From the NCBI RefSeq assembly GCF_002113885.1, contig NW_018408761.1, positions 997,580 to 1,061,579 of the forward strand: 64,000 bases of DNA. Direction: 5' to 3'. Shown here piece after piece: positions 19,591-54,344 of this stretch. This DNA comes from Mizuhopecten yessoensis (Eukaryota). Position 1 is the first letter of the stretch. Each line of letters opens with the position of its first letter. The notes under the pieces were generated by a model. The model searched no databases. It was given only the letters and a program-made list of their open reading frames with translations, and was not told the DNA's origin. The position numbers were made by a program, and so were the translations under genes.

Positions 19591-19608
19591 AACTACTCTT
19601 TGTTCCAG

Positions 19609-25340: not shown

Positions 25341-25384
25341 CTGTCGAGTTTAAAAGTGAATAAATATTAGATTGGAATAATGCA

Positions 25385-31334: not shown

Positions 31335-31522
31335 GCTGTGCAGCCACATTTGGGAGGAAGCAATGTTGATTACCCAGTAGAGTCCTTGTTCCTTCTCAGT
31401 CCAGCAGAGGGCAGCAGGAGTGTCTTCCTCATCTCAGATGGTTACCTTAGCAACAGTGATGTGTTGCTGTCAACAATCAGGAAAGGAAATGCTAAAAATA
31501 GAGTCTTCACCATTGGTGTTGG
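31335..31522 (+). CDS. PARP4: PARP4-like exon 21 (VWA)
   Basis: Acceptor TGATATTTCAG|. AVQPHLGGSNVDYPVESLFLLSPAEGSRSVFLISDGYLSNSDVLLSTIRKGNAKNRVFTIGV(G). Donor TGG|GTAAAT, phase 2. Confidence 0.9.
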
Positions 31523-32388: not shown

Positions 32389-32488
32389 ACAAAACGTGAA
32401 CCACCACCTGATGCGGAGCCTGGCGTCACGAGGAGGCGGTACCTATTACCATTACAACTATAAGACACGCTCCGTTTGGGAGGCCAGG
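32389..32488 (+). CDS. PARP4: PARP4-like exon 22 (VWA end)
   Basis: Acceptor GTTTTTATGAAG|. (G)QNVNHHLMRSLASRGGGTYYHYNYKTRSVWEAR (compare vertebrate STANRHVLRILSQCGAGVFEYFNAKSKHSWRKQ). Donor AGG|GTGAGT. Confidence 0.85.
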
Positions 32489-33507
32489 GTGAGTGATCCA
32501 GTCTCATCACCTTGTTGTATGAGGCTTTGTTATTGTTGGTTGTAAGCAAGGGAGAAACTCTCAGCATCATCCTGAGAAAATAATCTGACCCAAGCATCTG
32601 CACTAACAAATCTCATATGAAGGATTGTAATTTTAACACAGTACTGGGTCTCTTCTAAAGTGGTGGACGTTTTTTTGTTTCAAACATTACTATACTGTAG
32701 ACCTTGGTTTGAACTCTCATACTAGTAGAATGACTCAGGCATTTATATTCACAAAGTTCACTACAAAGCAAACAGTCATTTAAGTCAGAATGAACAAAAA
32801 ATATAACACTGAGTTCCTTGTTAAATTTCTTTTTGCAAATAATGTTAACGAGCTTTCCTTTAGCATAGGAAAGGGGGTGAGTCTAAATTACAGGTAACAA
32901 ACTTAGTGGTTAAACTATATCATAGTGATCTCAATGTCTTTACTCTAATATACAATTTCGCAACTTTCGTGTTGAGCGATAAACTTCATGTTTTTCCTGC
33001 CATATAATTTCACTGAACCTATTGGAACAGAAGATAATGCCCAAATTCTTCAAGAATTTCTTGAAGTCTCTCAAAAAACAGGGACATAATTCAAATCAGA
33101 GCTTAGTCAATGATTAAAGCTTAATAGGGTAGAAACATGCAGACTAGATCACAAATTAAAAACAAATTTTGCTACTGAAATCATCACATTACATATTGGA
33201 ATACTGGTAGAAGTGGTTCAGTATGATTTACAGAAACAATTATACATATAGATTTGAAATATAGCATTACAAAGAGACAATCTACAGGAAATACGTGTTT
33301 AAAGCTGTCAATCAATATCCATTCCCTTAGTTAACTCATTCACCCCTGATTTCATAATGAATTATTCCAAACTTTGAATTGGAAGAGTTCAAATGTGTCT
33401 TCAGGGGTAATTGAGTTAAATATGATCTCTGAAAATTTCATCTTTAAGAGATATTTAAGAGGTAGTCTTGTACTTCTATGTCACTTTTATGTTTTAATAC
33501 TCTCCAG

Positions 33508-33678
33508 ATGAACACTCAAGTTCAGAAGGCATGCCGTCCAGGTATTTCTGGTGTTAAAGTGGAGTGGCAGCAAAACATGGACACGACCAACAGACCTCTT
33601 CAGGCCCCTAATCACATCCCAAGTTTGTTTTCTGGGTCACGACAGGTCGTGTATGGCTTTGTACCTAACTGTACACAG
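33508..33678 (+). CDS. PARP4: PARP4-like exon 23
   Basis: Acceptor ATACTCTCCAG|. MNTQVQKACRPGISGVKVEWQQNMDTTNRPLQAPNHIPSLFSGSRQVVYGFVPNCTQ (compare vertebrate ..VSVKWQQ...LQAPAQVPSLF...LLVYGFIPHCTQ). Donor CAG|GTGAGA. Confidence 0.9.
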
Positions 33679-35760
33679 GTGAGAATTTTTATTACACTGA
33701 TGTGCTGGTAAGCAGGGGTTCAACTAGTTATATCTTTGTATGGCTTTGTACCTAACTGCACACAGGTGAGAATTTTTATTACACTGATGTGCTGGTAAGC
33801 AGGGGTTCAACTACTCCCCTCGGTAGGGACAAGTTATATCTTTGTATGGCTTTGTACCTAGCTGTACACAGGTGAGACTTTGTATTACACTGATGTACTG
33901 GTAAGCAGGGGTTCAACTACTCACCTCGTTAGGGACAAGTTATATCTTATCTTTGTATGGCTTTGTACCTAACTGTACACAGGCGAGAATTTTTATTACG
34001 AGGATGTGCTGGTAAGCAGGGGTTCAACTACTCGCCTCGTTAGGGACAAGTTATATCTTTGTATGGCTTTGTACCTGAATTTAGGCAGGGGAGGCTTTGT
34101 ATTACACTGATGTGCTGGTAAGCAGGGGCTCAACTACTCACCTCGGTAGGGACAAGTTATATCTTCATATGGCTTTGTACCTAACTGTACACAGGTGAGA
34201 ATTTTTATTACGAGGATGTGCTGGTAAGCAGGGTTTCAACTACTCACCTCGGTAGGGACAAGTTATATCTATGTATGGCTTTGTACCTAACTGTACACAG
34301 GTGAGACTTTTTATTACGAGGATGTGCTGGTAAGCAGGGGTTCAACTACTCCCCTCGGTAGGGACAAGTTATATCTTTGTATGGCTTTGTACCTGAATTT
34401 AGGCAGGGGAGGCTTTGTATTACACTGATGTGCTGGTAAGCAGGGGTTCAACTACTTATTTCTGGTGTTAAAGTGGAGTGGCAGCAAAACATGGACACGA
34501 CCAACAGACCTCTTCAGGCCCCAAATCACATCCCAAGTTTGTTTTCTGGGTCACGACAGGTCGTGTATGGCTTTGTACCTAACTGTACACAAGTGAGAAT
34601 TTTTATTACGAGGATGTGCTGGTAAGCAGGGTTTCAACTACTCACCTCGGTAGGGACAAGTTATATCTTCATATGGCTTTGTACCTAACTGTACACAGGT
34701 GAGAATTTTTATTACACTGATGTGCTGGTAAGCAGGGGTTCAACTACTCCCCTCGGTAGGGACAAGTTATATCTTTGTATGGCTTTGTGCCTAACTGTAC
34801 ACAGGTGAGACTTTGTATTACACTAATGTGCTGGTAAGCAGGGGTTCAACTACTCACATCGGTAGGGACAAGTTATATCACGCTTTATATCTAGATAAAA
34901 TAAAACGAGTTCATTACAAAGATGACCGGACAAAAAATGATGTATTCAATATCAATATCAATATTGATATATCTTTGTATGGCTTTGTACCTAACTGTAC
35001 ACAGGTAAGACTTTGTATTACACTGATGTACTGGTAAGCAGGGGTTCAACTACTTACCTCGTTAGGGACAAGTTATATCTTTGTATGGCTTTGTACCTAA
35101 CTGTGCACAGGTGAGACTTTGTATTACACTGATGTGCTGGTAAGCAGGGATTCAACTAGTTATATCTTTGTATGGCTTTGTACCTAACTGTACACTGGTG
35201 AGACTTTGTATTACGAGGATGTGCTGGTAAGCCGGGGTTCAACTACTCACCTCGGTAGGGACAAGTTATATCTATGTATGGCTTTGTACCTAACTGTACA
35301 CAGGTGACACTTTGTATTACGAGGATGTGCTGGTAAGCAGGGGTTCAACTACTCCCCTCGGTAGGGACAAGTTATATCTTTGTATGGCTTTGTACCTAAC
35401 TGCACACAGGTGAGAATTTTTATTACACTGATGTGCTGGTAAGCAGGGGTTCAACTAGTTATATCTTTGTATGGCTTTGTACCTAACTGCACACAGGTGA
35501 GAATTTTTATTACACTGATGTGCTGGTAAGCAGGGGTTCAACTAGTTATATCTTTGTATGGCTTTGTACCTAACTGCACACAGGTGAGAATTTTTATTAC
35601 ACTGATGTGCTGGTAAGCAGGGGTTCAACTAGTTATATCTTTGTATGGCTTTGTACCTAACTGTGCACAGGTGAGACTTTGTATTACACTGATGTGCTGG
35701 TAAGCAGGGGTTCAACTACTCACATCGGTAGGGACAAGTTATATCACGCTTTATATCTAG
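33543..35760 (+). repeat. Minisatellite (about 86-110 bp unit, about 19 copies) seeded from the last codons plus 5' splice site of exon 23; includes a 136-nt second copy of the exon 3' part at 34457-34592
   Basis: Each unit starts with TATGGCTTTGTACCTAACTGTACACAG|GTGAGA (YGFVPNCTQ plus donor). It continues with ATTTTTATTACACTGATGTGCTGGTAAGCAGGGGTTCAACTAC(TCACCTCGGTAGGGACAA)GTTATATCTTTG. Confidence 0.9.
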
Positions 35761-35920
35761 ATAAAATAAAACGAGTTCATTACAAAGCTGACAGGACCAA
35801 AAATGATGTATTCAATATCAATATCAATATTGATTATATTAGGAGACTGTAAGTGCAGAATTAAGTTCTTTGCAAAGGGGTTTTTAATGTGTGGTGGAAC
35901 TGGAATGGGTTGATTGTCGG

Positions 35921-36010
35921 TGGCCAGGTAGCTCAAATAGTAGTGTCTGTCTAGTGTTGTGAGGGTTCCAGGTTTGAACCCCAGTCTGGCCATTGCATTT
36001 CTGTTTTGCA
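35921..36010 (+). mobile_element. tRNA-derived SINE head (degenerate A and B boxes)
   Basis: GGCCAGGTAGCTCAAATAGTAG...GGTTCCAGGTTTGAACCCCAGTCTGGCCATTGCATTTC. A related, better preserved copy lies at 62690-62790. Confidence 0.45.
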
Positions 36011-36078
36011 ACAAATGTATTGTTGTGTCTGGTTGTAATTTGGTTAGTCTGTTTAATGAAGAAGGTAAAAAGGTTATA

Positions 36079-37118
36079 TTAGCTCACCTATGAGCTTATG
36101 GTATGGCGTGTTGTCACTCGTCTGTCATCCGCCCGTCATTGAGTCTGTCGTTCATCGTCCCATCAACGTTTTCTTTGAATGGCTTGTTCTCAAGAACTGG
36201 AGGACCTAGGGCCATGATATTTGTTCAGTAGGTACCTGGGACAGAGTGCTGTAATATTTTCTCAAATAAATGACCTTAACTTACTTTCTATGTCACAGGG
36301 GTTAAATATATAAAAAAACCTTTAAACAACTTCTTCTGAATAACCAGGAGGCCCAGAGTAATAATACTAGGTCAGTATGTACCTGGCATGAAGTGCTATA
36401 AAGTGTCCTCAAACAAATGACCTTGACTTACTTTCAAGGTCACAGGGGTCAAATGTGTTTAAAAACCTTTAAAACATCTTCTTCTGAATTTCTGAATAAC
36501 CAGTAGGCTAAGAGTCATGATATTTGGTTTGGCCAGTAGGTTCATGGGACAGAGTGCTATAAGTTTTCCTCCAATAAATAACCTTGACCTACTTTCAAGG
36601 TCATGGGTTAAATATGTAAAAAATAAATTAAACATCTTCTTCTAAATAACCAGGAAGCCCAAAGTAATAATACTTGGCCAGTAGGTACCTGGCATGAAGT
36701 GCTATAAAGTTTCCTCAAATAAATGATCTTGACATACTTTCAATGTCACAGGGTTCAAAATTGTAAAAATCTTTAAACAACTTCTTCTGAATAGCTAAGA
36801 GGCTTAGAGCAATGATATTTGGCTAGTAGGTACCTGGGACAGAATGCTATCACGTTTCCTCATATAAATTACCTAGACCTCCTTTACAGTCACAGGGTTC
36901 AAATATGTGAATACTTCTTCTGCAATACCAGGATGCCCTCATTGATGATGTTTGACAAGTAGCATGCTGGGATAGAGTAGTATAAAGCTTCATTTAGTCT
37001 GGAGCATTCTTAAGCCAAGGAAACTCAATATATTAAAATATTTACAAAAGTACTTTTATTGAGAATATTTTCCCATGATTGCTCAAATAACCAGGTGAGT
37101 GATAAGAGGGCCTCTTGT
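36079..37118 (+). mobile_element. Composite non-autonomous element, family A, with approximately 120-140-bp internal units
   Basis: Head TTAGCTCACCTATGAGCTTATGGTATGGCGTG. Tail AACCAGGTGAGTGATAAGAGGGCCTCTTGTA. The internal units are related to those at 20571-21494. Confidence 0.65.
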
Positions 37119-37340
37119 AAAATGATTAAAGAGTTTCTCCATTTCAGAATGTTGTCAGTCTGTTAGAGATATATATAGATGGTAATATTTGCCTCGGACA
37201 AATAACAAACTTACAATGTCGGATCATACCAAGGTAAATATCTCTTTGTAACAATAACAAACTTACAATGTCGGATCATAACAAGGTAAATATCTCTTTG
37301 TAACAATAACAAATTACAGCAACCATCATTTATTTTACAG

Positions 37341-37421
37341 GCCTATTTGAAGGCAACTGTGGACAACATGGAGGTTTCTACGATGGTAGCAACAACAGAA
37401 CTCAACATTACACAAGGAGAG
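37341..37421 (+). CDS. PARP4: PARP4-like exon 24
   Basis: Acceptor TTTATTTTACAG|. AYLKATVDNMEVSTMVATTELNITQGE (compare vertebrate ..EFRTMVSTTELQKTTGT). Donor GAG|GTAATC. Confidence 0.85.
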
Positions 37422-37803
37422 GTAATCAACATCAATTAGAAATGGAAAATGTATTCTATTATAATATCTCATTGCTTGTGAACAGAACTCCTTTTTCAAC
37501 ATCTCGTTCATTCAGATAAATTAAAGTCTATCTACCAGAAGCATAACATTTACATCAGACTTCCAAAGGTGAATTCAAAGCATTTCTCTTGGTTGTCATT
37601 TATATTTACTTGATATTTTGTACTTTACACCACAAGCTTTCTAGTTAATTAAATCAGATTATCAGGGCCCTAGCTGGTGATTTTTATGTGAGTAAATAAA
37701 TTCTACAACCTGTGTGAAAGTTTGATGGAATAGCAGCATTGAAAACAATGTTACCTGTTTTACATGTAGTTCTCTCCCCTGATTGGATATATTTTGTCCC
37801 CAG

Positions 37804-37884
37804 ATGCTGCATCAGCTGACGGCTCGTGCGGTGATCCGTGACTACGAGGATGGCATCCTTTGTGAGGACAAGATACAACAGCGG
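37804..37884 (+). CDS. PARP4: PARP4-like exon 25
   Basis: Acceptor TTTTGTCCCCAG|. MLHQLTARAVIRDYEDGILCEDKIQQR (compare vertebrate MIHKLAARALIRDYEDGILHE). Donor CGG|GTAGGT. Confidence 0.9.
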
Positions 37885-38640
37885 GTAGGTACTCGTGCAA
37901 ACATAATCTCTTATTTTGCAATTATTCAAATGCTATTGGTACAAATTCTCAAGAAACACAAAAAAAAAAATCATAACATTAAATTACTTTTGAATAATTG
38001 AAATAATACAGAGTTGGCTGTTGGCTGTCATTGACCGTGACAAAAGGTGGATTGTTGTTCTGATGGTACTTACCAAACATACAAAACTTGTTTGCAAAGC
38101 TGTCCTTTCTGGTTTGGTCCTCTATACATCAACTAGCCAAAGATATTGCAATGATTCCCATGAAGGTTTTGTTGTAATGATTGAATCATTGCAATTAACT
38201 TAGTCATGATGAATGGATACAACCAATATTTCAGATCTAGTATTATCAAAGTTTTGTTAGTGTATAACCTGTTTCTCCATGATCAAAGAATTTTAACGTG
38301 TTTGGTGCCAACTCATGCTGGATATCTTATAGACTCTATACTGCAGATAACTCTGACCAAGATCACTGTTTCCAAGTGCTTCCATTGTGCTAAACCCTTG
38401 GTTAACGGTTACTATCCCATTGTTCTATAGATTAACCTGAAGAGAAATTCCATCTAGCCGAATCAGTAACAAAGTTTCTAAATAATTCACCACTTTGACA
38501 TAGCCCTCCATGGAAGGACCTGACCCCTAAGACTTCAGTGACAACCATAATTATGCCTTTAAGAGTAAGGCTAAAGAGATGATAAAACATAGTATTGTGA
38601 TCACATTGTAAGCACCAGTGTATACGTAACTGAGATCCTT

Positions 38641-39365
38641 ATTTCTCTTACCCTGGACAGGTGTATACACACTTTTCCTGTTGTGAGTTTATAATAGAAT
38701 CTTTCACCCCAAAGGGTGAGATGAGGGAATCTCAACCCGAGGGGGAAGATTCTTAAGTTGACAGCAAAGCCTCAGGTTCGGCAACTTAGGAGAATCTCAA
38801 CCATTCTTTCCCTGAGGGTTGAGATTCTCCTATCTCACCCCCAGGGGGATGAGAGATTATTTTTCTCTTACCCTGTTCTTGCATTGTGTATAATATACAT
38901 ATTGTAATGTTACAGGCTAAATTCAGGGTTGACGTGACGTTGATGGATTGTTTATGTGACGTCATACCATTGTTATGAATAGGGGAATCCCCCCGTTTCA
39001 ACCCTAGGGTGTGACATTGATATATCACACCGGTAAAAGTGTGGATACACCTGTCCAGGGTAAGAGAAATCCTTGTCTTTCCTAGGGTTGAGACGGGGGG
39101 ATTCCCCTATTCATAACAACTGTATGACGTTACGTCAACATTACATCAGCATCATGTCAACAACGTATTATATGATACACAATGAGTGAACAGGGTATTA
39201 AGAGAAAAATAATTATTGACCCGCTTGTGGTTGAGATTGGGGAAATATTCTTAAGTTGCCTTACACTCGGCAAAACCTCATGTTTGTCAACTTAAGAATC
39301 GTCCCCATCATGTTGAGATTCCGCTATCTCACCCGCAAGGGGTGAGAGATTCTATTATTCCAAGT
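38641..39365. mobile_element. Long imperfect palindrome / foldback element in intron 25
   Basis: TTTCTCTTACCCTGGACAGGTGTATACACACTTTT (38641-38675) versus AAAAGTGTGGATACACCTGTCCAGGGTAAGAGAAA (39035-39069). Also about 38690-39010 is mirrored as a reverse complement at about 39078-39365. For example, TTGTTATGAATAGGGGAATCCCCCCGTTTCAACCCTAGG matches CCTAGGGTTGAGACGGGGGGATTCCCCTATTCATAACAA. Confidence 0.65.
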
Positions 39366-39537
39366 TCACCCGCTAGGTCTCTAATCCAGATTTACAAAAT
39401 TCAAATCCATTCTAAACTTTCTCCTAATTATCAGAGTCAACAAGTGATTAGATGCTTCTCTACTTTGACAATCAGAAAGCCAGTACTAGCTGAATAAGTT
39501 CTCAGAATTGATTTCAGTATGAACTGTGCTTCTTCAG

Positions 39538-39639
39538 GTGCTGAAACAGGAGAGAAAGAACACCATTATACAGCTGAGCACGGAGTACTCCATTGTGACC
39601 CCCTACACCAGCTTTGTGGCCATTGAGGAAAGAGATCAG
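39538..39639 (+). CDS. PARP4: PARP4-like exon 26
   Basis: Acceptor GTGCTTCTTCAG|. VLKQERKNTIIQLSTEYSIVTPYTSFVAIEERDQ (compare vertebrate ..LSKENSLITQFTSFVAVEKRDE). Donor CAG|GTATTT. Confidence 0.9.
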
Positions 39640-40474: not shown

Positions 40475-40582
40475 GATGAGCAGATAACAGATGGACCATC
40501 TATTGATGACCTGGTTGCTGAGGAATCTGTAGACATTTTGGATTATGTAGGCTGGCAGAACCCTGATTTCTTTGATGAAAAG
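40475..40582 (+). CDS. PARP4: PARP4-like exon 27
   Basis: Acceptor CTTACCATTGTCAG|. DEQITDGPSIDDLVAEESVDILDYVGWQNPDFFDEK (compare vertebrate ..ELIAKEDVDFLPYMSWQGEPQ). Donor AAG|GTAAGT. Confidence 0.75.
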
Positions 40583-41235: not shown

Positions 41236-41382
41236 GAGCCAGAAGAAATTGTAGAGGAACTGTTAAGAAAAGCTTTGATTGCAGAGAGCTTCTCACAACA
41301 GGAGGCAAATAGAACCTATGCCTCTATCTTAGATTACAAATCCTGTCTTCAAAACGATGCCAACAACGAACTCAAAGAAAAG
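41236..41382 (+). CDS. PARP4: PARP4-like exon 28 (lineage-specific linker; no homology recognised)
   Basis: Acceptor TTGATTCTGATCTAG|. EPEEIVEELLRKALIAESFSQQEANRTYASILDYKSCLQNDANNELKEK. Donor AAG|GTAACT. Phase 0 to 0. Confidence 0.6.
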
Positions 41383-41999: not shown

Positions 42000-42087
42000 G
42001 TTATGGAAGCAGCTGAAAGATTTTTCTCCTGTTCTAAAGATGACATTAGCCAAAATATGTTGGCAGAGTTTCGGAAAAGTTTTCCTT
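42000..42087 (+). CDS. PARP4: PARP4-like exon 29 (leader of the ubiquitin-like module)
   Basis: Acceptor GTTTTTGTTTTCAAAG|. VMEAAERFFSCSKDDISQNMLAEFRKSFP(F). Donor CCTT|GTAAGT, phase 1. This is the only frame compatible with both neighbouring exons. It contains an in-frame ATG at 42003. Confidence 0.6.
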
Positions 42088-42549: not shown

Positions 42550-42726
42550 TCCCAATCGAGATACACACCCTGACTGGTAGGACTATCCCCGTGAGTGTGT
42601 CCGAGGGCGACACCGTGTCTGACTTGAAGAATAAGATCCATCAGATAGATGGACTTGACCCAGAGCAGCAGAGATTGATTGTTGGTGGGAAACCGCTGAA
42701 GGATCTCGCTGTTCTCTCCGATCTTG
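42550..42726 (+). CDS. PARP4: PARP4-like exon 30 (ubiquitin-like domain, first three quarters)
   Basis: Acceptor TTATTCCCATTGCAG|. (F)PIEIHTLTGRTIPVSVSEGDTVSDLKNKIHQIDGLDPEQQRLIVGGKPLKDLAVLSDL, which aligns with ubiquitin [58 protein letters not shown]. Donor CTTG|GTAATT, phase 1. Confidence 0.85.
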
Positions 42727-42744
42727 GTAATTATACCCCACATA

Positions 42745-43166
42745 ACGTTGTATAAACGGTGGGTCTGATCCCCATTTGGGACAGAGAGGCGGGGCTTTAA
42801 TATCCTTCTTCTTCCGTTGGGATGAAGGTATTTTGACCAAACTTGAACAGTAGCATCCTATGGGGAAGGGAAATCCATATTAGGTCTAATGCATCCTTGG
42901 GTGAAGGGGACCTAATTTTGTATCAATTGTGGGTCTAACCCTCCTATGGGCAAAGGGGCGGGGCCCAATAGAGGAAACATAGCAAATTCTTCAAATCCTC
43001 CTTTTCCTGTAGGAATGACAAGATTTTGTCCAATTGCATATAAATATAATCCCTGACTAATCATGTAATACATGTACATTTCCAGCATCATCTGGCTATT
43101 TCAACTTCAATTTTGCTAACATTTCCAGGTGAGCTATACAGGTCCTCTGGGCCTCTTGTTTTTTTT
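42745..43166 (+). mobile_element. Family A element, 5'-truncated, starting about 18 bp after the exon 30 donor
   Basis: Units of the ..TGTATAAA..GTGGGTCT.....CC......GGG.....GGGGC....AATAG.GGAAA type. Tail TTCCAGGTGAGCTATACAGGTCCTCTGGGCCTCTTGTTTTTT. Confidence 0.55.
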
Positions 43167-43239
43167 ATTTTATGAAACTCAACAAATGTAATCTTACACC
43201 ACACTCTGAAGTGTTGCTTTTCTTTTTTTCATCAAATAG

Positions 43240-43925
43240 TGGGCTGTTCAAATCACTATTCATCTGTGGTCTGTCTTCCATTCATCATTCAGTCCATCCA
43301 TCCATCCATTTGTCCTTAAACAATTCTTGATAGTGCTATTTCTCAGAGAGATCTTTCTCAAGTTTCACCTGAAGGTTCCCTTTGTTCCCTAGTTATGCTT
43401 ATCAAATTAAGGGTCCTGACAAAGTGTTGTTATTTTTCGGGTCGATCAAAATTCCAATATGGCCGACATGGCCACCATTTTGAAAAAAAACAATTTCAAA
43501 CTTAAGGTCAAGTTCTGCTGGGCCGATTAAACTTAAACTTTTTAGGAATGATCGACTTATTGTCCTGACAAAGTGTTGTTATATTTCGGGTCAATCAGAA
43601 ATCCAATATGGCCACCACGGCCCCCATTTTGAAAAACTATTTCAAACTTAAAGTCAAGTTCTAATGGGCCGATTAAACTGAAACTTTGTAGGAATGATCG
43701 ACTCATGGTCCTGACAAAGTGTTGTTATTTTTCGGGTCGATCAGAAATACAATTTGGCTGCCATGGCCGCTATTTTGAAAATAACTATTTCAAACTTAAA
43801 ATCAAGTTCTAATAGGCCCATTTAACTGAAACTCTTTCTAAGAATGATCAGCTCATGGTCCTGACAAACTTAAGTTAACGTTATACTTAACTATTTTTTA
43901 CTCAAATTGGTACATATTTCAACAA
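43240..43925 (+). mobile_element. Family B element (approximately 131-bp units, about 3.5 copies), 3'-truncated
   Basis: Same GGTCCTGACAAAGTGTTGTTATTTTTCGGGTCGATCA.AAAT.CAATATGGCC...GCC.CCATTTTGAAAA units as 6443-6886. No tail motif. Confidence 0.55.
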
Positions 43926-44738
43926 CAACAAAAAATCTTGGATTTCAACAGTTCAGTTTGTTGTCACTTTTTCCCATAAAGTCCTTAAACAATAAGCATT
44001 GTACTAGTAAATAGGTAAAACAACCAGCTCGCTTTGAAAGAACAGTGTCATACACAGCAGAATGAAGGCTTTGCTCAAAAGTTACCACAATTAAGGTGCG
44101 TTACTGTTAACGTGACTCAATCTTACAGATAAGAGAGAAAAGAAGAATCTTACATAGAATCTATGAAGATAATAAGAATAATATCTTTTATTTAACCAGG
44201 GTTACATATTTAGACAATGTCTAGTTTACAATATGGCGCTGAAGCAAACTATATATACAAGCATGACAACAATTTAAGATAACAGTATAACACTGCAGTA
44301 TATGGTATCATCACAGTCAATGTAACTTGAAGTTAAGTAATCCTAAATTAGAATTTAATAGTGAACACTTGCATATCACACGAGTGTTACTGAATGATAT
44401 GGTTAAAGCATAGTCAAATATACATAATATGTTAATATGGCAAAGCGTAAAAAATGACAAGATATACACCAATTAGTCCAATATAGTGTGTATTAAAATG
44501 AGACAAAGAAGTCGGTGGTGTGAAAAATAATAATTTATGATAGAAATATGATGGTACGATAGTCGGTGTCAAGGTCCCCCGGGGATCTCTTGTTTTAAAA
44601 GACAGAAAGATGTGAAAATGAAAATAAAGCATTAATGGGGAAAATAAAACACGAACTGCTAAAGAGGTTAATGTCGTTTTCTTTAAGGCAGTGGCCAATC
44701 ATATCGTCCACAGTCATATCTAAAAGCAGATCTATGCT

Positions 44739-46463
44739 TTTTAGCTCACCGGCCTGAAGGGCAAGTGAGCTTATGCTATGGCGCGGCGTCAGGCATCCGT
44801 CATCTTTTCCTAAAAAACGCTACTTGTCATAAACGACTGAGCAGATTTTGACCAAATTTGGTCAGAAGCATCCTTATGGGAAGGGGAACAAATTTTGTAT
44901 AAATGGTGGGTCTGGCCCCCTAGGGGCTGAGGGGTGGGGCCCAATAGGGAAAATATAGCAAATTCTTTAAAATCCTTCTTCTTTTGTAGGAATAAAAGGA
45001 TTGGTTCCATATTTGGTCTGAAGCATCCTTGGGGGAAGAGGAACCAATTTTGTATAAATGGGGGGTCTGGCCCCTGAGGGGCCTGAGCGACAGGCCAAAT
45101 AGGGGAAACATAGCAAATTCTTTAAAATCCTTCTTCTGTAGGAATGAAAGGATTTGTTCCATATTTAGTCTTAAGCATCCTTGGGTTAAGGGGAACCAAT
45201 TTTGTATAAACTGTGGGTCTGGCCCCTTTGGGGCCTGAGCGACGGGGCCCAATAGGGGAAACATAGCAAATTCTTTAAAATCTTTCTTCTGCAGGAATGA
45301 AAGGATTTGTTCCATATTTGGTCTGAAGCATCCTTGGGTGAAGTGGAACCGATTTTGTATAAGCAAGGGGTCTAGCCCCCATGGATCTGAGGGGCGGGGC
45401 CAAAAGGGGTCAATTGCGCTATATTGATTTAAGCGACTTCTTCTCTGGAACTAAGAGATGGATATCAACCATATTTGACTGGAAGCATCCCTCTGTAGTG
45501 GAGATTCACAATTGTACAAATGGTTGGGCTGACATCCCAGGGGGCTGAGGTGCGGGTCCAAAAGGGCGCAATTTGGCTATATTGGTGTACGACTTCTTCT
45601 GTAGCATTATACCATGGATATCGATCATATTTGGTCAGAAGCTTTCATGGGAAGTAGGGATTCAAAATTGTACAAATGGTGGGGCTGACCCCCCGTGCTA
45701 AGGGGTGGGGCCAAAAAAAGTTTATTACTTGGAAATGGTTGAGATCCCAACCATATAACCATATATATAATTGTGGAGTATGAAGAGAAGCATTCACATT
45801 TGCTTCAAGGATGGCCTAGGGTCTGGCCCCACCCTTTGAGACATAGTCCCTGGGTCATATCTTTGAAACGATTGAGATCCGCACCCCAGAACTATATATA
45901 CAAATGCTTGGCATAAAGAGACAAAAGTAGTCATGGTATTAAAATAGACCCTGGGGTCTGACCGAACCCCTAGGGACCTAGTTTCTTAGTCACAGCTTCG
46001 AAACAGTTGAGATCCCCACCCTATAACTATGCATATATACAATTGCTGAGTATAAAGAGATGAATGCACATATGCTTCCAGGATGGCCTTGGGGTCTGCC
46101 CAAACTTTGCAGACTTAACCCCTGGGTAAATATAACTTTGAAACAGTTGAGATCCCCACCCCAAGACTATAAATACAAATGCTAGACAAAAAGAGACGAA
46201 TATAGTCATGATATTATAATTGATCCTGGCGTCTGGCCACAACCCGAGGGATCTAGTTTCTGAGTCACAGCTTGGAAACAGTTGAGATCCCCACCCCATT
46301 ACCATACATTAAATTGCTGGGCATGAAAAATCTAATACAGACATACTACAAGAATTGACATTGGGGTCTGGCATATACCCTTGGATCTCATTTGGAGAAT
46401 ATTTTGCTTTTTGATTGCTTAGATATTCAGGTGAGGAATTCAGGCCCTCTGTGCCTCTTGTTT
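44739..46463 (+). mobile_element. Long family A composite element (three different internal tandem arrays), ending about 130 bp upstream of exon 31
   Basis: Head TTTTTAGCTCACCGGCCTGAAGGGCAAGTGAGCTTATGCTATGGCGCGGCGTC. Internal arrays of about 120 bp (44860-45400), about 165 bp (45400-45720) and about 150 bp (45720-46320). Tail TTCAGGTGAGGAATTCAGGCCCTCTGTGCCTCTTGTTT. Confidence 0.7.
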
Positions 46464-46593
46464 ACCATAAGAATACATCATATTTGATTGAGAGGATGTG
46501 CTTTTAGAGGTGGCAGCTGTTTTGATACAACGTTATGTGAGGGCATGAGTTAGCCTCTATATAACAATTGTATTTTTTTTCTATATTCTTCAG

Positions 46594-46694
46594 ATCTGGA
46601 GTATAATGCTGTCTTCCTGTTACCAAGGCTGCGAGGGGGACTTAGTTTTGGTCTCAAGGAAGATTTGAAAACAAAGCGTATTCTCGCGGAAAAC
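46594..46694 (+). CDS. PARP4: PARP4-like exon 31 (ubiquitin-like domain C-terminus with RLRGG)
   Basis: Acceptor TTTTCTATATTCTTCAG|. (D)LEYNAVFLLPRLRGGLSFGLKEDLKTKRILAEN. RLRGG is at 46626-46640. Donor AAC|GTATGA, phase 0. Read-through of the donor gives V then TGA. Confidence 0.8.
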
Positions 46695-46777
46695 GTATGA
46701 TATGACAATAAGACATAAAATGTGGATTCCACTCTCAAAAATCTAAGGGTGGGGTAGAAAGTGGTTTATTGGACATT

Positions 46778-51232: not shown

Positions 51233-51459
51233 GACATGAATGAGTATGATCAGATATATGGTAAGAAGGTGCATACGGAAAAGGACAAAAGCTGTACTGA
51301 TGATGGAAAAAACCCGGTGAAGATGTCCTCATTGTTTTCTCCTTTTAGGCAATCCTTACGAATGATGGCTCCAAGGAAACAGTTAGCAACCAAAGCTGCC
51401 AGAAAATCTGCACCTGCAAACTTTGATGAAAATGAGGAGGAGCAGAATGAGGATGACAG

Positions 51460-51497
<38 letters not shown>

Positions 51498-54313
51498 TTG
51501 AAAAGATGGGCAACTTTAGCTGCATGGCACTTCCAGATGACAACGTGGTTGATGATGCTACGAACAAGAAACAGGAAGTGTCAGATGTAGGAAGAATACC
51601 AGACTCTCCACTCTCAGCAACACAGTTTGGCCCCTTGTCTCCAAAATGTTCAGATTCATTTGGTACAAACTTTGAAAAATTTGAAATCTCTCAGTATTTA
51701 GATGAAGACATGGAGATTGATTTAGATACTGAAGACCCGGCATTCCTCATTCTCACTTCTGAAATATCTGACATATTTTCACCTTCAATGGCAGGCCATT
51801 CTCAGGACACTCCAGCCTATATATCAACCTCCCCATCTTACAAACCAACTTCCCCATCCTATTCGCCCACTTCCCCATCTTACAAACCAACTTCCCCATC
51901 CTATTCGCCCACCTCCCCATCTTACAAACCAACTTCCCCATCCTATTCGCCCACCTCCCCATCTTACAAACCAACTTCTCTATCCTATTCGCCCACTTCC
52001 CCATCTTACAAACCAACTTCTCCATCCTATTCACCAAATAGAAGAGCACGAAGAGCCAAATCAACATTTGAGGATTTCCAACATGAATCAACATCAAACA
52101 ATAAAGATTTTGTGGTTTCAGGTTCAAGACAAGCAAAGTCAAGCAGCACATCTAGTGAACATGGTTTGTGTGGAGCTCCAGTGCAAGCAGAACCAGGCAG
52201 TAAACCAAGTCAGAGCTTCAATTTTAATGCTTCGCTACAAACAGCATCAAGCAATGAACCAACACAAAGTTTGGGATTGGGGGCTCCAAACCTAGCAGAA
52301 CTAGGCGGTAAACCAAGTCAGGGGTTCAATTTTAGTGCTCCTCTAGTAACAGCATCAAGAAATATATCAACACAAAGTTTGGGATTGGGGGCTCCAAACC
52401 TAGCAGAACCAAACACAATGCCAAGTCAAGGGTTTTCCTTTGGAGCTCGAATGCAAACAACTCAAAGCGCTTCACCAGCCGAAGGTTTCAGTTTTTCTCA
52501 GAATCAAACATTGCAGAGCATTACCAGTAAAGGAAGCCATTGTTTTGGATTTGGGACTTCAAAACCAGCCGGAGCAAGCAGAACGACAAGTCAAGGGTTT
52601 TCCTTTGGCGCTCAAATGCAGTCCCAACGATGCAATATACCAACCCAAGATTTCTATTTTGGAGCTTCAAATTCAGCAGGTTTTGGAGATGACGGTGACA
52701 GACGTGGTGGTTATGGAGGTGTCAGTGTTAGACCTGGTGGTTATGGAGATGACAGTGACAGACGTGGTGGTTATGGAGGTGTCAGTGTTAGACGTGGTGG
52801 TTATGGAGGTGTCAGTGAGGGACTTGGTGGTTATGGAGGTGTCAGTGTTAGACGTGGTAGTTATGGAGGTGACAGTGTTAGATGTGGTGGTTATGGAGGT
52901 GTCAGTGAGGAATGTGGTGGTTATGGAGGTGTCAGTGAGGGACTTGGTAGTTATGGAGGTGTCAGTGAGGGACTTGGTAGTTATGGAGATGACGGTGTCG
53001 GACGTGGTGGTTATGGAGATGACAGTGTCGGACGTGGTGGTTATGGAGGTGACAGTGTCGGAGGTGATGGTTATGGAGGTGTCAGTGAGGGATTTGGTGG
53101 TTATGGAGGTGACAGTGAGGGATGTGGTGGTTATGGAGGTGTCAGTGTTAGATGTGGTGGTTATGGAGGTGTCAGTGAGGGACGTGGTGGTTATGGAGGT
53201 GACAGTGAGGGACGTGGTGGTCCTAGACTTGCTGGTTCTAAAGATGGACATGTTTCTTACATAGAAACAGCACCAACATTTACATATTTGAAGGATCTTG
53301 ACTTGAATTTAGCAAAACATGATCCAAAAACTAGGATATTGAAGGAAAATGACAGAAGACCTTCCAGTGTAACAGAGAAGGATCTGCCTTCACAGCCTTT
53401 CAGACATGTACAGGATAAAATGTTCCCACCAGACTTTGATGAATCCTTATTACCTAAACAAAAGAGAAAAATTCCTCCTGTTGGAAGAGGAGGTTCTGGA
53501 TTCACTGCAAGGAATGACCAGGGTCCTGCTGAAACAACCAAAGAACAAGGTCGAAGGTCATTAAAGTCAGTCAGAGGCGCAATGCATGGTGCAAGATCAA
53601 GAGACAGAAATAGGGAACAATCTCGTGAGCTTATTGTGCTGGATAAGAGTAAAAAACTAAGTTTGAGTCATGACAGAAGGCGGAGGAGTTTGAGTAGAAG
53701 TTTGAGTCGAGACAGAAGACAGAGGAGTTTGAGTAGAAGTTTGAGTCGAGACAGAAGGCGGAGGAGTTTGAGTAGAAGTTTGAGTCGAGACAGAAGGCGG
53801 AGGAGTTTGAGTAGAAGTTTGAGTCGAGGAAGGGGGAGAAGAGACTTGGAAAGATGTTACAGTAGAGATAGAGCAAGAAAGGAAAATAAAAAAATGCACA
53901 GATCAAGTGGAAATAATGATACAAACAGTAGGAATAAAAATAGGGACAAAGCAGGAAGCAAAATAGACAGAGATCCTGCAAGAGAAAGTAAGAAACAGAT
54001 AAAGCATAAAAATGAAAAGAAGGAGCAAACAAAGGCTGATGAACAGGTTGTCAAAACATTTGGGAAAAAAGGGAAGAAAAGGGAACAGACAAGGGATGAT
54101 GAAGAGATTGTCAAAACTGGAGGGAAGAACCTGTCAGGAAAGTTGGAATATGATGATCATGAGAAAATGGACTTTACAGTGGACATGGCACCAACTTTGA
54201 AAGTCTGGGATGTAACATCAGAGACAGGCAAGGACATTGTGAAATTCATAAAGTATATTTCTGATTCAATCTTCTTTTATATACAAAAGATCTGTAATTT
54301 TCTACAAATTCAA
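51233..54313 (+). CDS. PARP4: PARP4-like exon 32: 3081-nt low-complexity exon (H3-tail copy, poly-Asp, CTD-like heptads, FG-like, GGYGG, RS and Lys-rich modules)
   Basis: Acceptor TTCTGTATTTCAG| with phase 0 from exon 31. Single open frame of 1027 codons (the track ORF 51236-54337 is the same frame). Donor CAA|GTGAGC after ..KICNFLQIQ (compare vertebrate PARP4 ..SCFLQIK..). An alternative weaker donor is ATCT|GTAATT after 54293. Confidence 0.8.
51368..51418 (+). other. Histone H3 tail copy: [17 protein letters not shown] (identical to H3 residues 15-31)
   Basis: Direct translation of GCT CCA AGG AAA CAG TTA GCA ACC AAA GCT GCC AGA AAA TCT GCA CCT GCA in the exon 32 frame. Confidence 0.9.
51461..51496 (+). 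repeat. (GAT)12 coding microsatellite, poly-Asp tract
   Basis: Twelve uninterrupted GAT codons within [18 protein letters not shown]. Confidence 0.95.
51824..52039 (+). repeat. RNA polymerase II CTD-like heptad array (42-bp two-heptad unit, about 10 heptads)
   Basis: [72 protein letters not shown]. Confidence 0.9.
52214..52687 (+). other. FG-nucleoporin-like segment
   Basis: SFNF, GFNFS, GFSFG, GFSFS, CFGFG, GFSFG, FYFG and AGFG motifs, separated by uncharged S/T/Q/N/A/G/P-rich spacers. Includes a 34-aa duplicated unit ([20 protein letters not shown]). Confidence 0.7.
52700..53221 (+). repeat. 30-bp coding tandem repeat, about 17 copies of the decapeptide (R/L/C)GGYGG(V/D)S(V/E)(R/G)
   Basis: [50 protein letters not shown]...[14 protein letters not shown]. 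Other frames on both strands stay open across it because of the repeat. Confidence 0.9.
53657..53833 (+). repeat. 42-bp coding tandem repeat, 4 copies of [14 protein letters not shown] (RS-domain-like)
   Basis: [62 protein letters not shown]. Confidence 0.9.
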
Positions 54314-54344
54314 GTGAGCTTAAGTGAACTTTCTTGATTAGCTT

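What the first reader, a model, noticed from the sequence alone, without database searches (positions are those of the whole stretch)
42550..46640. Internal ubiquitin-like domain with an intact ubiquitin C-terminus (LPRLRGG) inside a PARP
Exons 30 and 31 encode PIEIHTLTGRTIPVSVSEGDTVSDLKNKIHQIDGLDPEQQRLIVGGKPLKDLAVLSDLDLEYNAVFLLPRLRGG. By eye this is about 40 percent identical to ubiquitin over the full 76 residues. It keeps the TLTG (L8) turn, the QQRLI.GK (I44, K48) patch, K27/K29 equivalents and the terminal RLRGG. The K6, K11, K33 and K63 equivalents are not conserved. Unlike ordinary integral UBLs it retains the di-glycine, and unlike free ubiquitin it is followed in frame by more than 1100 further codons (LSFGLKEDL...). 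That is the layout of ubiquitin-fusion precursors, which are cleaved after GG (established for polyubiquitin, UBA52 and RPS27A). Inference: processing after GG would release BRCT-PARP-VIT-VWA-UBL with a conjugatable GG end from the disordered vault-anchored half. The domain is split by a 3.9 kb TE-filled intron exactly before the last beta strand. If the exon 31 donor is not used, the frame ends after one more codon (AEN-V-stop at 46695-46700). That would give a natural short isoform ending 19 residues after GG.
Basis: partly seen in the sequence, partly recalled or inferred. Interest (0 to 1): 0.8.

Follow-up and report, generated by a model that had tools for sequence, protein, structure and literature searches.

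The report
Ubiquitin look-alike inside a vault PARP
Two exons of a mollusc-type PARP4 (vault PARP) gene encode a real ubiquitin-like domain that keeps ubiquitin's RLRGG tail; relatives from molluscs and unnamed eukaryotes carry the same module, mostly with a proline after GG that hinders cleavage, so it is more likely a permanently attached ubiquitin mimic than a precursor made to be cut.

Summary
Exons 42550-42726 and 46594-46694 splice in frame and encode a ubiquitin-family domain (Pfam E=5e-16, 44% identical to ubiquitin) ending in RLRGG-Leu. The domain lies inside a BRCT-PARP-VIT-vWA (PARP4-like) gene, upstream of a 3.1-kb disordered exon.

The domain is not unique to this gene. Fourteen PARP4-like proteins carry a UBL at the same position, including Sinanodonta, Biomphalaria, Plakobranchus and unnamed eukaryotes. 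In 12 of their 15 UBL copies the LRGG tail is kept. In 8 of those 12, from several clades, GG is followed by Pro, the residue after which ubiquitin fusions are cleaved inefficiently. The four copies without Pro, this window among them, are the most diverged from ubiquitin.

I therefore read it as a tethered ubiquitin mimic whose GG junction is normally protected. Here the Pro is lost, so cleavage is possible but unproven.

The UBL is one of a series of host-protein copies in PARP4 tails: 14-3-3, actin N-terminus, ribosomal P-stalk motif, HSP70, VAMP, Pol II CTD heptads and the H3 tail. I found no paper describing this, and it suggests a bait or decoy function.

The parts
4792..39639 (+). Upstream exons of the PARP4-like gene: BRCT, PARP catalytic, VIT, vWA and the conserved post-vWA region.
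   Evidence: tblastn of Solemya velum P0001 (Pfam BRCT, PARP, VIT, VWA) gives 22 collinear HSPs from 4792 to 34610. Other PARP4-like proteins extend the match to 39639. The top hits of the protein search are PARP4 or PARP4-like.
40475..40582 (+). Exon encoding DEQITDGPSIDDLVAEESVDILDYVGWQNPDFFDEK. This is the last motif shared by all PARP4-like proteins ('VD.LPYMGW').
   Evidence: Phase 0-0, acceptor tgtcag|, donor |gtaagt.
41236..41382 (+). Linker exon (EPEEIVEELLRKALIAESF...ELKEK).
   Evidence: It aligns with the Sinanodonta P0146 linker (39% identity).
42000..42087 (+). Linker exon (VMEAAERFFSCSKDDISQNMLAEFRKSFP + 1 nt). It is a remnant of 14-3-3 helices 8-9 and sets phase 1 for the UBL exon.
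   Evidence: acceptor ttttcaaag|, donor |gtaagt. A family linker profile matches 14-3-3 zeta residues 177-226 with hhalign probability 86% and E=4.9e-6; the window row lies in the aligned columns. P0141 and P0148 have clear 14-3-3 hits directly before their UBL.
42550..42726 (+). UBL exon A, equivalent to ubiquitin residues 1-59 (F-PIEIHTLTG...LSDL). It is a symmetric 1-1 exon of 177 nt.
42727..46593 (.). Phase-1 intron of 3867 nt, rich in interspersed repeats.
   Evidence: 64% of it has copies elsewhere in the window, with up to 14 copies of the segment 44738-46464.
46594..46694 (+). UBL exon B, equivalent to ubiquitin residues 60-76 (DLEYNAVFLLPRLRGG) plus LSFGLKEDLKTKRILAEN.
46626..46643 (+). 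Codons for RLRGG (46626-46640) and the P1' residue Leu (46641-43). This is the putative protease junction.
   Evidence: Read directly from the sequence. In the family alignment this column is Pro in 8 of the 12 relatives that keep GG.
46695..46700 (+). GTA TGA: Val-stop, read only if the exon B donor is not used.
   Evidence: No nearby polyadenylation signal.
51233..54334 (+). Giant open exon of up to 1034 codons, with a probable donor at 54202|gt. It is disordered and has no Pfam hit. In order it holds: a copy of the H3 tail (51368-51418), poly-Asp, Pol II CTD-like heptads, FG-like repeats, RGG/YGG repeats, RS repeats and a Lys-rich end.
   Evidence: The H3-like, CTD-like and RS motifs are shared with Sinanodonta P0146.
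58914..59006 (+). Part of the conserved C-terminal domain (GQYWELTPELCQTLG...), after acceptor cacag|.
   Evidence: tblastn with the Sinanodonta C-terminus: 42% identity, E=0.007; sequence. Its identity as an MVP-interaction domain was not shown.

Best explanation
The two exons encode an integral ubiquitin-fold module of a PARP4 (vault PARP) orthologue. The module is old and patchily retained in this protein family. It sits after a degenerate 14-3-3 remnant and before the giant disordered exon.

What the module keeps is what other proteins use to recognise ubiquitin: the L8-I44-V70 hydrophobic patch, R42, and the flexible R72-L73-R74-G75-G76 tail.

Most likely mechanism (inferred): it is a permanently tethered ubiquitin look-alike. 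It would act as a docking or bait surface for proteins that bind or act on ubiquitin, such as ubiquitin receptors, DUB-type proteases and ubiquitin-modifying enzymes. That would bring them to PARP4 and, presumably, to the vault.

The GG|X bond is a protease-type junction that evolution has watched. Most relatives guard it with Pro at P1'. In this gene the guard is replaced by Leu. The bond is then either no longer recognised, because the domain has diverged, or is a latent cleavage site. If it is cut, the catalytic N-terminal part of about 1450 residues would separate from the tail, and the tail would begin with Leu, a destabilising N-terminal residue in the Arg/N-degron pathway.

Shown here: the domain's identity, its reading frame, the conservation of the module and of its tail across relatives, and the P1' pattern.
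Inferred: binding partners, lack of constitutive cleavage, and any link to vaults.
For: Identity and frame:
- Ubiquitin family membership.
- Unbroken reading frame with canonical splice sites from the vWA exons through the UBL into the 3.1-kb exon.
- No ATG upstream in the UBL frame, so it is not a stand-alone gene.

The same architecture in relatives:
- Fourteen PARP4-like proteins carry a UBL 7-160 residues (50-160 in all but the fragment P0241) after the 'VD.LPYMGW' motif.
- They include Sinanodonta woodiana KAL3858028.1, Biomphalaria glabrata A0A2C9KRG3 and Plakobranchus ocellatus GFO43316.1.
- In an NJ tree of the vWA/post-vWA region the window pairs with Sinanodonta. UBL-bearing proteins are scattered over at least five clades.

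Conservation (15 copies aligned: 14 from relatives plus the window):
- L8 14/15, R42 13/15, L43 14/15, I44 12/15, L73 14/15, R74 14/15, G75 13/15, G76 12/15.
- The chain-acceptor lysines are not conserved: K29 2/15, K48 9/15, K63 4/15.

The P1' residue (13 GG-keeping copies, counting the window):
- Pro in 8; Leu, Leu, Arg and Gly in the others. Positions P2' onward vary freely.
- Pro-bearing copies are 53-78% identical to ubiquitin. Non-Pro copies are 36-53% identical (one-sided Mann-Whitney p=0.005, not corrected for phylogeny).
- Ubiquitin followed by Pro is cleaved inefficiently (PMC9634822 Appendix 1).

Structure: an AF2 model of the Sinanodonta orthologue's UBL has mean pLDDT 84.5 and a beta-beta-alpha-beta-beta-beta grasp fold. 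The residues after GG (85-92) have pLDDT below 50, and the 10-residue block holding the RLRGG tail averages 83, so the junction is modelled as flexible. The best PDB matches are ubiquitin, TM about 0.8 and rmsd 1.6-2.2 A.

Context: PARP4 tails in many taxa hold other copies of conserved host proteins or motifs. The equivalent disordered exon of mammalian PARP4 evolves under positive selection (PMC4038475).
Against: - No experiment and no RNA or protein data for this species.
- The window itself has Leu, not Pro, after GG, so the family argument does not apply directly to it.
- Pro is not an absolute lock. A USP that cleaves the ubiquitin-proline bond efficiently has been described (Gilchrist et al. 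1997, cited in PMC9634822). GG-Pro could therefore mark regulated cleavage rather than none.
- Ordinary ubiquitin-binding domains do not need the RLRGG tail. Its strict conservation fits enzymes that thread the tail into an active site at least as well as it fits pure docking.
- The structure of the window's own domain could not be predicted, because the tool refuses spliced sequences.
- The P1'/divergence correlation rests on 12 sequences, which amount to perhaps 3-5 independent events.
Confidence: 0.45

Rival explanations
1. Cleavable ubiquitin-fusion junction. A host DUB or ULP cuts after RLRGG, constitutively or on a signal. This releases BRCT-PARP-VIT-vWA-UBL with a free GG end from the disordered tail.
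For: - GG is followed by Leu, a residue that DUBs accept.
- RLRGG is kept although the rest of the domain has drifted to 44% identity.
- The tail is modelled as flexible in the orthologue.
- The very conservation of Pro at P1' in relatives implies that DUB-type enzymes do see this junction.
- In all four copies without Pro the tail is still intact, and P1' is L, L, R or G.
- FUBI-eS30 shows that a UBL only about 37% identical to ubiquitin can have a dedicated processing DUB (established knowledge, not tested here).
Against: - The UBL is internal, not N-terminal.
- Positions that many USPs use are changed: F4E, L71P and one deletion near H68.
- The closest named orthologue, Sinanodonta, has GG-Pro.
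- There is no sign of a separate gene or isoform for either half.
- Conjugation of a 1500-residue UBL-ended protein would need E1 recognition, for which there is no evidence.
Confidence: 0.3
2. Decaying relic. The UBL is an ancestral module on its way to being lost in this lineage and no longer has a function. Its tail is retained by chance.
For: - Most PARP4-like proteins have lost the UBL. About 65 of about 80 proteins with at least 250 residues after the post-vWA motif lack it.
- Lottia shows none within 10 kb downstream of a compact gene.
- The window's copy is among the most diverged.
Against: - The hydrophobic core, K27, G10, G47, L50, L69 and five of the six tail residues are intact.
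- The frame is open and the splice sites are canonical.
- RLRGG is shared with Sinanodonta although the two domains are only 42% identical overall.
Confidence: 0.1
3. Built-in degron. An uncleaved ubiquitin moiety is extended on K29/K48 by UFD-type ligases (TRIP12/UFD4-like), which sets the half-life of PARP4.
For: - K27, K29 and K48 are kept in the window.
- Non-cleavable ubiquitin fusions are UFD substrates (PMC6423620; PMC9634822).
Against: Across the family K29 is kept in only 2 of 15 copies and K48 in 9 of 15. The known UFD signal is an N-terminal ubiquitin, not an internal one.
Confidence: 0.05
4. Gene-model artefact. The two exons are not part of the PARP4 mRNA, for example a fragment of a ubiquitin pseudogene lying in an intron.
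For: No RNA evidence is available for this window. The region is repeat-rich.
Against: - Phases and splice sites fit on both sides.
- There is no start codon in the UBL frame.
- Annotated proteins of Sinanodonta, Biomphalaria and Plakobranchus have the same order of linker, UBL and tail.
- An intron-free ORF in a metagenome contig encodes VIT-vWA-UBL-UBL in one piece.
Confidence: 0.03

Closest known systems
Human PARP4 / vPARP (BRCT-PARP-VIT-vWA, disordered largest exon, MVP-binding domain)
   Same: Same order of BRCT, PARP catalytic, VIT and vWA domains and the same post-vWA motif. One very large disordered exon lies between the vWA and the C-terminal domain, like human exon 30, which evolves under positive selection (PMC4038475).
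   Different: Vertebrate PARP4 sequences in my sample have no UBL. The window's disordered exon is about three times longer. An MVP-interaction domain could not be demonstrated here.
Ubiquitin-fusion precursors (polyubiquitin, UBA52, RPS27A, FAU/FUBI-eS30)
   Same: A ubiquitin-type domain ending in (R)LRGG is followed in frame by further polypeptide, with a non-Pro residue after GG in this window.
   Different: In those precursors the ubiquitin moiety is N-terminal and, except for FUBI, identical to ubiquitin, and the junction is cleavable in all species. Here the UBL is internal and 44% identical, and the junction carries Pro in most relatives.
Integral (type-2) UBL domains of RAD23, ubiquilin, parkin, BAG6 and others
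   Same: A beta-grasp domain embedded in a larger protein, which most likely acts by being bound.
   Different: Those domains have lost the LRGG tail. This family keeps it in 12 of 15 copies in relatives.
Non-cleavable ubiquitin fusions (Ub-Pro-X, UbG76V-X) of the UFD pathway
   Same: In relatives the ubiquitin moiety is protected from DUBs by Pro at P1' (PMC9634822).
   Different: Those are engineered N-terminal fusions that act as degrons. Here the fusions are natural and internal, the acceptor lysines are not conserved, and the window itself lacks the Pro.
Integrated decoys of plant NLRs and protease 'tripwires' of NLRP1/CARD8 (functional analogy only)
   Same: An immune-suspected protein carries copies of host targets or cleavage-site mimics in a rapidly evolving region.
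   Different: There is no homology. No pathogen factor, cleavage event or signalling output is known for PARP4 tails. This is a hypothesis, not a test.

Membership tests
Ubiquitin family (Pfam PF00240) | Profile match above the curated threshold | tested here: met
   58.6 bits against a cutoff of 25.4, E=5.3e-16. PDB ubiquitin chains match at E about 1e-14.
Ubiquitin family (Pfam PF00240) | Beta-grasp fold with a conserved hydrophobic core | tested here: inconclusive
Core positions I3, V5, I13, L15, V17, I23, V26, I30, L43, L50, L56, I61, L67 and L69 are identical or conservatively replaced. The Sinanodonta orthologue models as ubiquitin: pLDDT 84.5, TM about 0.8.
Conjugatable ubiquitin-like modifiers (type-1 UBL) | C-terminal di-glycine exposed as a free carboxyl end after processing | not testable with these tools
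   GG is present (46635-46640) but lies inside the polypeptide. Exposure would need a cleavage that cannot be shown in silico.
Ubiquitin-fusion precursors (UBA52, RPS27A, polyubiquitin, FAU) | Ubiquitin moiety at the N-terminus of the precursor | tested here: not met
   About 30 exons, roughly 1450 residues, precede the UBL in frame.
Ubiquitin-fusion precursors (UBA52, RPS27A, polyubiquitin, FAU) | A cleavable junction (a non-Pro residue after GG) conserved among orthologues | tested here: not met
   The window has Leu, but 8 of the 12 related UBL copies that keep GG have Pro, including the closest named orthologue, Sinanodonta.
Integral (type-2) UBL domains | Embedded in a larger protein and lacking the GG processing site | tested here: not met
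   It is embedded, but RLRGG is retained here and LRGG in 12 of the 15 UBL copies in relatives.
PARP4 / vault PARP | BRCT, PARP catalytic, VIT and vWA domains in that order | tested here: met
   Collinear tblastn with P0001. The best database hits are PARP4 proteins with these Pfam domains.
PARP4 / vault PARP | C-terminal MVP-interaction domain (anchoring to the vault) | tested here: inconclusive
   A C-terminal domain is shared with Sinanodonta but gives no Pfam or PDB hit. In Plakobranchus the downstream gene model has only a weak PF26156 PARP4_MVP-ID hit.
UFD-type non-cleavable ubiquitin fusion | Pro (or G76V) blocking DUB cleavage, and K29/K48 used as chain acceptors | tested here: not met
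   P1' is Leu in the window. K29 is kept in 2 of 15 and K48 in 9 of 15 copies across the family.

The most novel reading that the evidence does not exclude
The variable tail of PARP4, from dictyostelid amoebae to animals, may be an array of integrated copies of the cell's most conserved hub proteins and motifs. The copies seen are 14-3-3, ubiquitin with its RLRGG tail, actin residues 2-73, the ribosomal P-stalk C-terminal peptide, the HSP70 substrate-binding domain, the VAMP SNARE motif, Pol II CTD heptads, the H3 tail, and FG and RS repeats. These would serve as baits or decoys for pathogen toxins, proteases and effectors that target those hubs, with PARP4 and the vault acting as guard. That would be an animal and amoebozoan counterpart of the integrated decoys of plant NLRs. 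On this reading the UBL of this window is the ubiquitin bait. Its GG junction would be a tripwire that host DUBs are kept from cutting, by Pro or by divergence.
Probability: 0.18. Interest if true: 0.9.

Novelty: new variant of a known kind. Interest (0 to 1): 0.62.

Why it matters
PARP4 is the least understood PARP, and the function of vaults is an old open question. The disordered exon of PARP4 is a hotspot of positive selection in mammals (PMC4038475), but nobody knows what it contacts.

A ubiquitin look-alike whose tail and junction residue are under visible selection gives a concrete, testable handle. One can ask which ubiquitin-binding or ubiquitin-cleaving proteins dock there. The natural Pro/Leu difference between species is a ready-made experiment on cleavability.

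The wider pattern is that PARP4 tails collect copies of 14-3-3, ubiquitin, actin, the P-stalk motif, HSP70, VAMP, the CTD and the H3 tail. If that pattern holds, it would recast PARP4 and the vault as a platform that displays host-target mimics. It would also make the 'vaults in immunity' idea directly testable.

Tried and rejected
1.. I searched the 5.8-billion protein set with the UBL plus tail at E<=1e-10 and got no hits. The threshold was too strict for that database size, and no close relative of the species is present. The search was wasted.
2.. A profile of the linker plus UBL from 13 family members was searched against the same set. The list was swamped by polyubiquitins and gave no new PARP4-UBL members.
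3.. The representative search and the structure predictor refuse spliced window sequences. I used a P0115 substring as the query and the Sinanodonta orthologue as a structural proxy.
4. Looking for UBL exons downstream of truncated mollusc gene models:
   - Solemya L001: none within 10 kb. One post-vWA exon lies on the opposite strand, which suggests an assembly inversion.
   - Candidula L003: none within the 7.4 kb that remain after the GW exon.
   - Lottia L004: none within 10 kb of a compact gene, so it is probably truly absent.
5.. The Sinanodonta locus could not be fetched because the gene range exceeds 100 kb. The intron position in its UBL is therefore unknown.
6.. The C-terminal domain was compared with Pfam, PDB and vertebrate PARP4 C-termini. 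Nothing significant came back, so the 'vault-anchored' claim stays untested.
7.. A more sensitive UBL profile run against all 261 collected proteins found no degenerate UBLs beyond those already seen.
8. Considered and rejected:
   - A recent retro-copy of a ubiquitin gene: the domain is 44% identical, split by an intron, and shared with distant taxa.
   - A stand-alone UBL gene nested in an intron: there is no start codon and the exon is symmetric in phase.
9.. Literature searches found no paper describing a UBL, or other host-protein copies, in PARP4.

Full report
**What is in the sequence.**
Reading 42400-42900 and 46450-46850 shows two exons with canonical boundaries.
- Exon A is 42550-42726: acceptor cccattgcag|, donor |gtaatt.
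- Exon B is 46594-46694: acceptor ttcttcag|, donor |gtatga.
RLRGG is encoded at 46626-46640 and the next codon (46641-43) is Leu. Reading through the exon B donor gives GTA TGA, Val then stop, as stated.

**It is a ubiquitin-family domain, far beyond chance.**
- Pfam ubiquitin (PF00240) matches at E=5.3e-16, 58.6 bits against a curated cutoff of 25.4.
- phmmer against PDB sequences finds ubiquitin chains at about 1e-13 to 1e-14, aligned over residues 3-74 with one single-residue gap before beta5.
- In a MAFFT alignment the domain is 33/75 = 44% identical to human ubiquitin.
- All hydrophobic core positions are identical or conservatively replaced.
- L8, K27, K29, R42, I44, K48, R72, L73, R74, G75 and G76 are kept.
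- K6, K11, K33 and K63 are replaced by H, R, I and Y. F4 is Glu, L71 is Pro, and one residue near H68 is missing.
As a proxy I modelled the UBL of the closest named orthologue, Sinanodonta woodiana. Mean pLDDT was 84.5, the fold was a beta-beta-alpha-beta-beta-beta grasp, and the residues after GG had low confidence, meaning a flexible junction. The best PDB matches were ubiquitin, with TM about 0.8 and rmsd 1.6-2.2 A.

**The gene and the reading frame.**
- A rough concatenation of the open segments upstream retrieves PARP4 and PARP4-like proteins with BRCT, PARP, VIT and vWA domains.
- tblastn of the best hit (Solemya velum, P0001) gives 22 collinear matches from 4792 to 34610. Other homologues extend this to 40567.
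- I then fixed the exon boundaries by hand from 31335 onward: 31335-31522, 32389-32488, 33508-33678, 37341-37421, 37804-37884, 39538-39639, 40475-40582, 41236-41382, 42000-42087, 42550-42726, 46594-46694 and 51233-54334.
- All twelve have AG/GT boundaries, and their concatenation is one open frame of 1482 codons.
- The 88-nt exon at 42000-42087 is essential. It ends in phase 1 and supplies the T of the TTC (Phe) codon that precedes PIEIH.
- The UBL frame has no ATG upstream, so this is an internal exon pair and not a nested gene.
- The UBL exon of 177 nt is symmetric (1-1). The three exons 42000-42087, 42550-42726 and 46594-46694 sum to 366 nt, a 0-0 cassette. In-frame skipping is therefore possible. 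This is an observation, not evidence of use.
- The intron inside the UBL is 3867 nt, and 64% of it recurs elsewhere in the window. It interrupts the codon equivalent to ubiquitin residue 60, a few residues before beta5.

**The module is shared with other PARP4-like proteins.**
- A full HMMER scan of 1.84 billion representative proteins used the vWA-to-linker part of P0115 as query. P0115 is a metagenomic VIT-vWA-UBL-UBL protein found. The scan returned 150 PARP4-like sequences.
- Scanning these locally for ubiquitin domains found 14 proteins with a UBL. It always lies shortly after the conserved 'VD.LPYMGW' motif, 50-160 residues in all but the fragment P0241, where it follows directly.
- The named ones are Sinanodonta woodiana (KAL3858028.1, 2293 aa), Biomphalaria glabrata (A0A2C9KRG3, 1924 aa) and Plakobranchus ocellatus (GFO43316.1).
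- About 65 of about 80 proteins that have at least 250 residues after the motif lack the UBL. These include all vertebrate ones, Nematostella, Hydra, Mytilus and Magallana.
- Lottia shows none within 10 kb downstream of a compact gene.
- In an NJ tree of the vWA/post-vWA region the window pairs with Sinanodonta. UBL-bearing proteins fall in at least five separate clades.
- One old acquisition followed by many losses is the simplest reading. Repeated capture of ubiquitin at the same place cannot be excluded.
- The Sinanodonta protein has the same order of linker, UBL and tail as my exon chain, and it aligns to the window's linker exons. This supports the gene model.
- Plakobranchus encodes the whole UBL in one exon with a donor right after RLRGGGEIT, so the intron in the window's UBL is lineage-specific. 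There the tail continues in the next gene model, which has a weak PARP4_MVP-ID hit.

**What selection has kept.**
Across 15 family copies (14 from relatives plus the window) the best-conserved columns are these:
- G10, K27, Q41, G47, L50 and L69, all 15/15;
- L8, L43, L73 and R74 14/15; R42 and G75 13/15; I44 and G76 12/15.
The chain-acceptor lysines are not conserved: K29 2/15, K48 9/15, K63 4/15. What is preserved is therefore ubiquitin's recognition surface and its C-terminal tail, not its capacity to carry chains.

The most telling column is the residue after GG. Among the 12 relatives' copies that keep GG it is Pro in 8: P0115b, P0121, P0141, P0146 (Sinanodonta), P0151, P0173, P0194 and P0254. 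The positions after it vary freely. The exceptions are Biomphalaria (Leu), P0241 (Arg) and Plakobranchus (Gly). The window (Leu) is a further exception.

Ubiquitin followed by Pro is cleaved inefficiently, and such uncleaved fusions enter the UFD pathway (PMC9634822 Appendix 1; PMC6423620). The copies with Pro are 53-78% identical to ubiquitin. Those without are 36-53% identical (one-sided Mann-Whitney p=0.005, not corrected for phylogeny).

My reading is as follows. Where the module still looks very much like ubiquitin, it needs the Pro to avoid being clipped by general DUBs. Where it has drifted, the Pro can be lost. The caveat is that a USP which cleaves the ubiquitin-proline bond efficiently is known (Gilchrist et al. 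1997, cited in PMC9634822). Pro could therefore mean restricted rather than absent cleavage.

**How it most likely works.**
I commit, at about 45%, to a permanently tethered ubiquitin look-alike. It would be a docking or bait surface for proteins that bind or act on ubiquitin, displayed between the enzymatic body of PARP4 and its disordered tail. Its GG|X bond would be a guarded protease-type junction.

In this gene the guard is missing. It is favoured by the intact RLRGG and by Leu at P1'. It is disfavoured by the internal position, by F4E, L71P and the deletion, and by GG-Pro in the closest named orthologue.

If cleavage does occur, the tail fragment would start with Leu. Leu is a destabilising residue in the Arg/N-degron pathway (established knowledge), so the tail would probably be short-lived. 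Conjugation of the released PARP fragment has no support.

The remaining rivals are less likely: a decaying relic (about 10%), a UFD-like degron (about 5%) and a gene-model artefact (about 3%).

**Context found on the way.**
- The linker exon just before the UBL is a remnant of 14-3-3. A profile of the family's linkers matches 14-3-3 zeta helices 8-9, with hhalign probability 86% and E=4.9e-6, and the window's row lies in the aligned columns.
- P0141 and P0148 have direct 14-3-3 hits ending 3-7 residues before their UBL.
- Dictyostelid PARP4-like proteins (Cavenderia, Synstelium) have a nearly complete 14-3-3 domain at that place.
- Pfam scans of 55 non-vertebrate-type PARP4-like proteins, together with local searches, show further recurrent insertions in the tail:
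  - actin residues about 2-73, in 7 proteins including the Nematostella and Hydra RefSeq models, Mytilus and Magallana;
  - the ribosomal P-stalk C-terminal peptide (acidic run plus MGFGLFD), matched by the motif pattern in 15 proteins including dictyostelid-type ones, some matches being loose;
  - the HSP70 substrate-binding domain, in 4;
  - the VAMP SNARE motif, in 5 including lungfish;
  - exact Pol II CTD heptads.
- The window's own 3.1-kb exon has no Pfam hit. Read directly, it is a string of such motifs: a 17/17 copy of histone H3 residues 15-31 ([17 protein letters not shown], 51368-51418), poly-Asp, about ten CTD-like heptads, FG-like repeats, RGG/YGG repeats and RS repeats.
- Sinanodonta shares the H3-like, CTD-like and RS elements.
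- I found no paper describing any of this.
- The equivalent exon of mammalian PARP4 is under strong positive selection (PMC4038475). The most novel reading not excluded is therefore that the tail is an array of baits for pathogen factors that attack conserved host hubs, with the UBL as its ubiquitin element. I give that about 18%.

**Known or new.**
The UBL is visible in automatic annotations of a few database entries: Pfam ubiquitin on KAL3858028.1 and on P0115. It does not appear in the PARP evolution literature I could read. Citarelli et al. 2010 describe clade 5 as BRCT-PARP-VIT-vWA only (PMC2964712).

It fails the tests for a ubiquitin-fusion precursor, because the position is not N-terminal and the junction is not conserved as cleavable. 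It also fails the test for an ordinary integral UBL, because it keeps LRGG. I file it as a new variant of a known kind: an integral ubiquitin mimic with a conserved, guarded GG junction in PARP4.

**Limits.**
- There are no RNA or protein data for this species.
- The window's own domain could not be modelled.
- The vault-binding role of the C-terminal domain is unverified.
- The comparative sample is 15 UBL copies in 14 relatives plus the window's own, several of them from unnamed metagenomic eukaryotes.
- Two database searches were uninformative.

Noticed in passing
window 51233-54334 (+); H3-like motif at 51368-51418: The giant exon after the UBL is a patchwork of well-known motifs. It holds a 17/17 identical copy of histone H3 residues 15-31 ([17 protein letters not shown], with K18, K23, K27 and S28). 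It also holds poly-Asp, about ten Pol II CTD-like heptads ([14 protein letters not shown]), FG-like GFSFGA repeats, RGGYGG repeats, RS-domain repeats ([13 protein letters not shown]) and a Lys-rich end. It has no Pfam hit. Sinanodonta P0146 shares the H3-like ([17 protein letters not shown]), CTD-like and RS elements.
   Followed up: partly
related proteins P0020-P0254 (tails after the 'VD.LPYMGW' motif); window 42000-42087: PARP4-like tails from dictyostelids to vertebrates carry recurring copies of conserved host proteins, in roughly the same order. First comes 14-3-3 (17 proteins), then ubiquitin-like (14) and actin residues 2-73 (7). These are followed by the ribosomal P-stalk motif (D/E run plus MGFGLFD; motif pattern matched in 15, some loosely) and the HSP70 substrate-binding domain (4). 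The VAMP SNARE motif (5, including lungfish) and exact CTD heptads also recur. Several of these are RefSeq models (Nematostella, Hydra, Protopterus). No publication was found. Single hits to Ras, a protein kinase, Slu7 and IRS-PTB may be gene-model fusions.
   Followed up: partly
window 33650-35718 (+), intron after exon 33508-33678: The intron holds about 20 tandem units of 87 or 106 bp. Each unit copies the last 29 nt of the exon (…VYGFVPNCTQ) together with its GTGAGA donor site, which makes an array of decoy 5' splice sites. A second copy of most of the exon lies at 34458-34610.
   Followed up: partly
window 44738-46464, 46851-47625, 18923-19168, 20752-21069, 25677-25970 and others: One interspersed repeat family fills many introns of the gene, with up to 14 copies of one segment in the window. 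Its minus-strand ORFs (…GPDPPFIQNWF.FPQGCFRPNMEQILSFLQKKDFKEF…) give no Pfam hit.
   Followed up: partly
window 1230-2651 (-) and 27839-28489 (-): There are two long minus-strand ORFs. One of 474 aa lies upstream of the PARP4-like gene and is Ser/Asp-rich at its start. One of 217 aa lies inside an intron and has hydrophobic, membrane-like stretches. Neither matches Pfam, and I did not pursue them.
   Followed up: partly
L005 (Plakobranchus ocellatus) 37377-37622 and 45411-45623: The public annotation splits the sea-slug PARP4 into two gene models at the exon boundary right after RLRGGGEIT. The downstream model of 842 aa carries a weak PARP4_MVP-ID hit. The apparent 'PARP4 ending in a UBL' is therefore an annotation break and not a natural C-terminus.
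   Followed up: yes
L001 (Solemya velum) 56057-56137: The exon for the post-vWA motif LHQLTAKAVIRDY lies on the opposite strand 2.5 kb downstream of the truncated gene model. This suggests an assembly inversion or a rearranged gene.
   Followed up: no
L002 (ENA contig) 10001-12793: An intron-free ORF encodes VIT-vWA-UBL-UBL (P0115) with no PARP domain in the called protein. It lies next to THAP/THAP9-like genes. The second UBL is 78% identical to ubiquitin and ends in RLRGG-Pro. The organism is unknown.
   Followed up: partly
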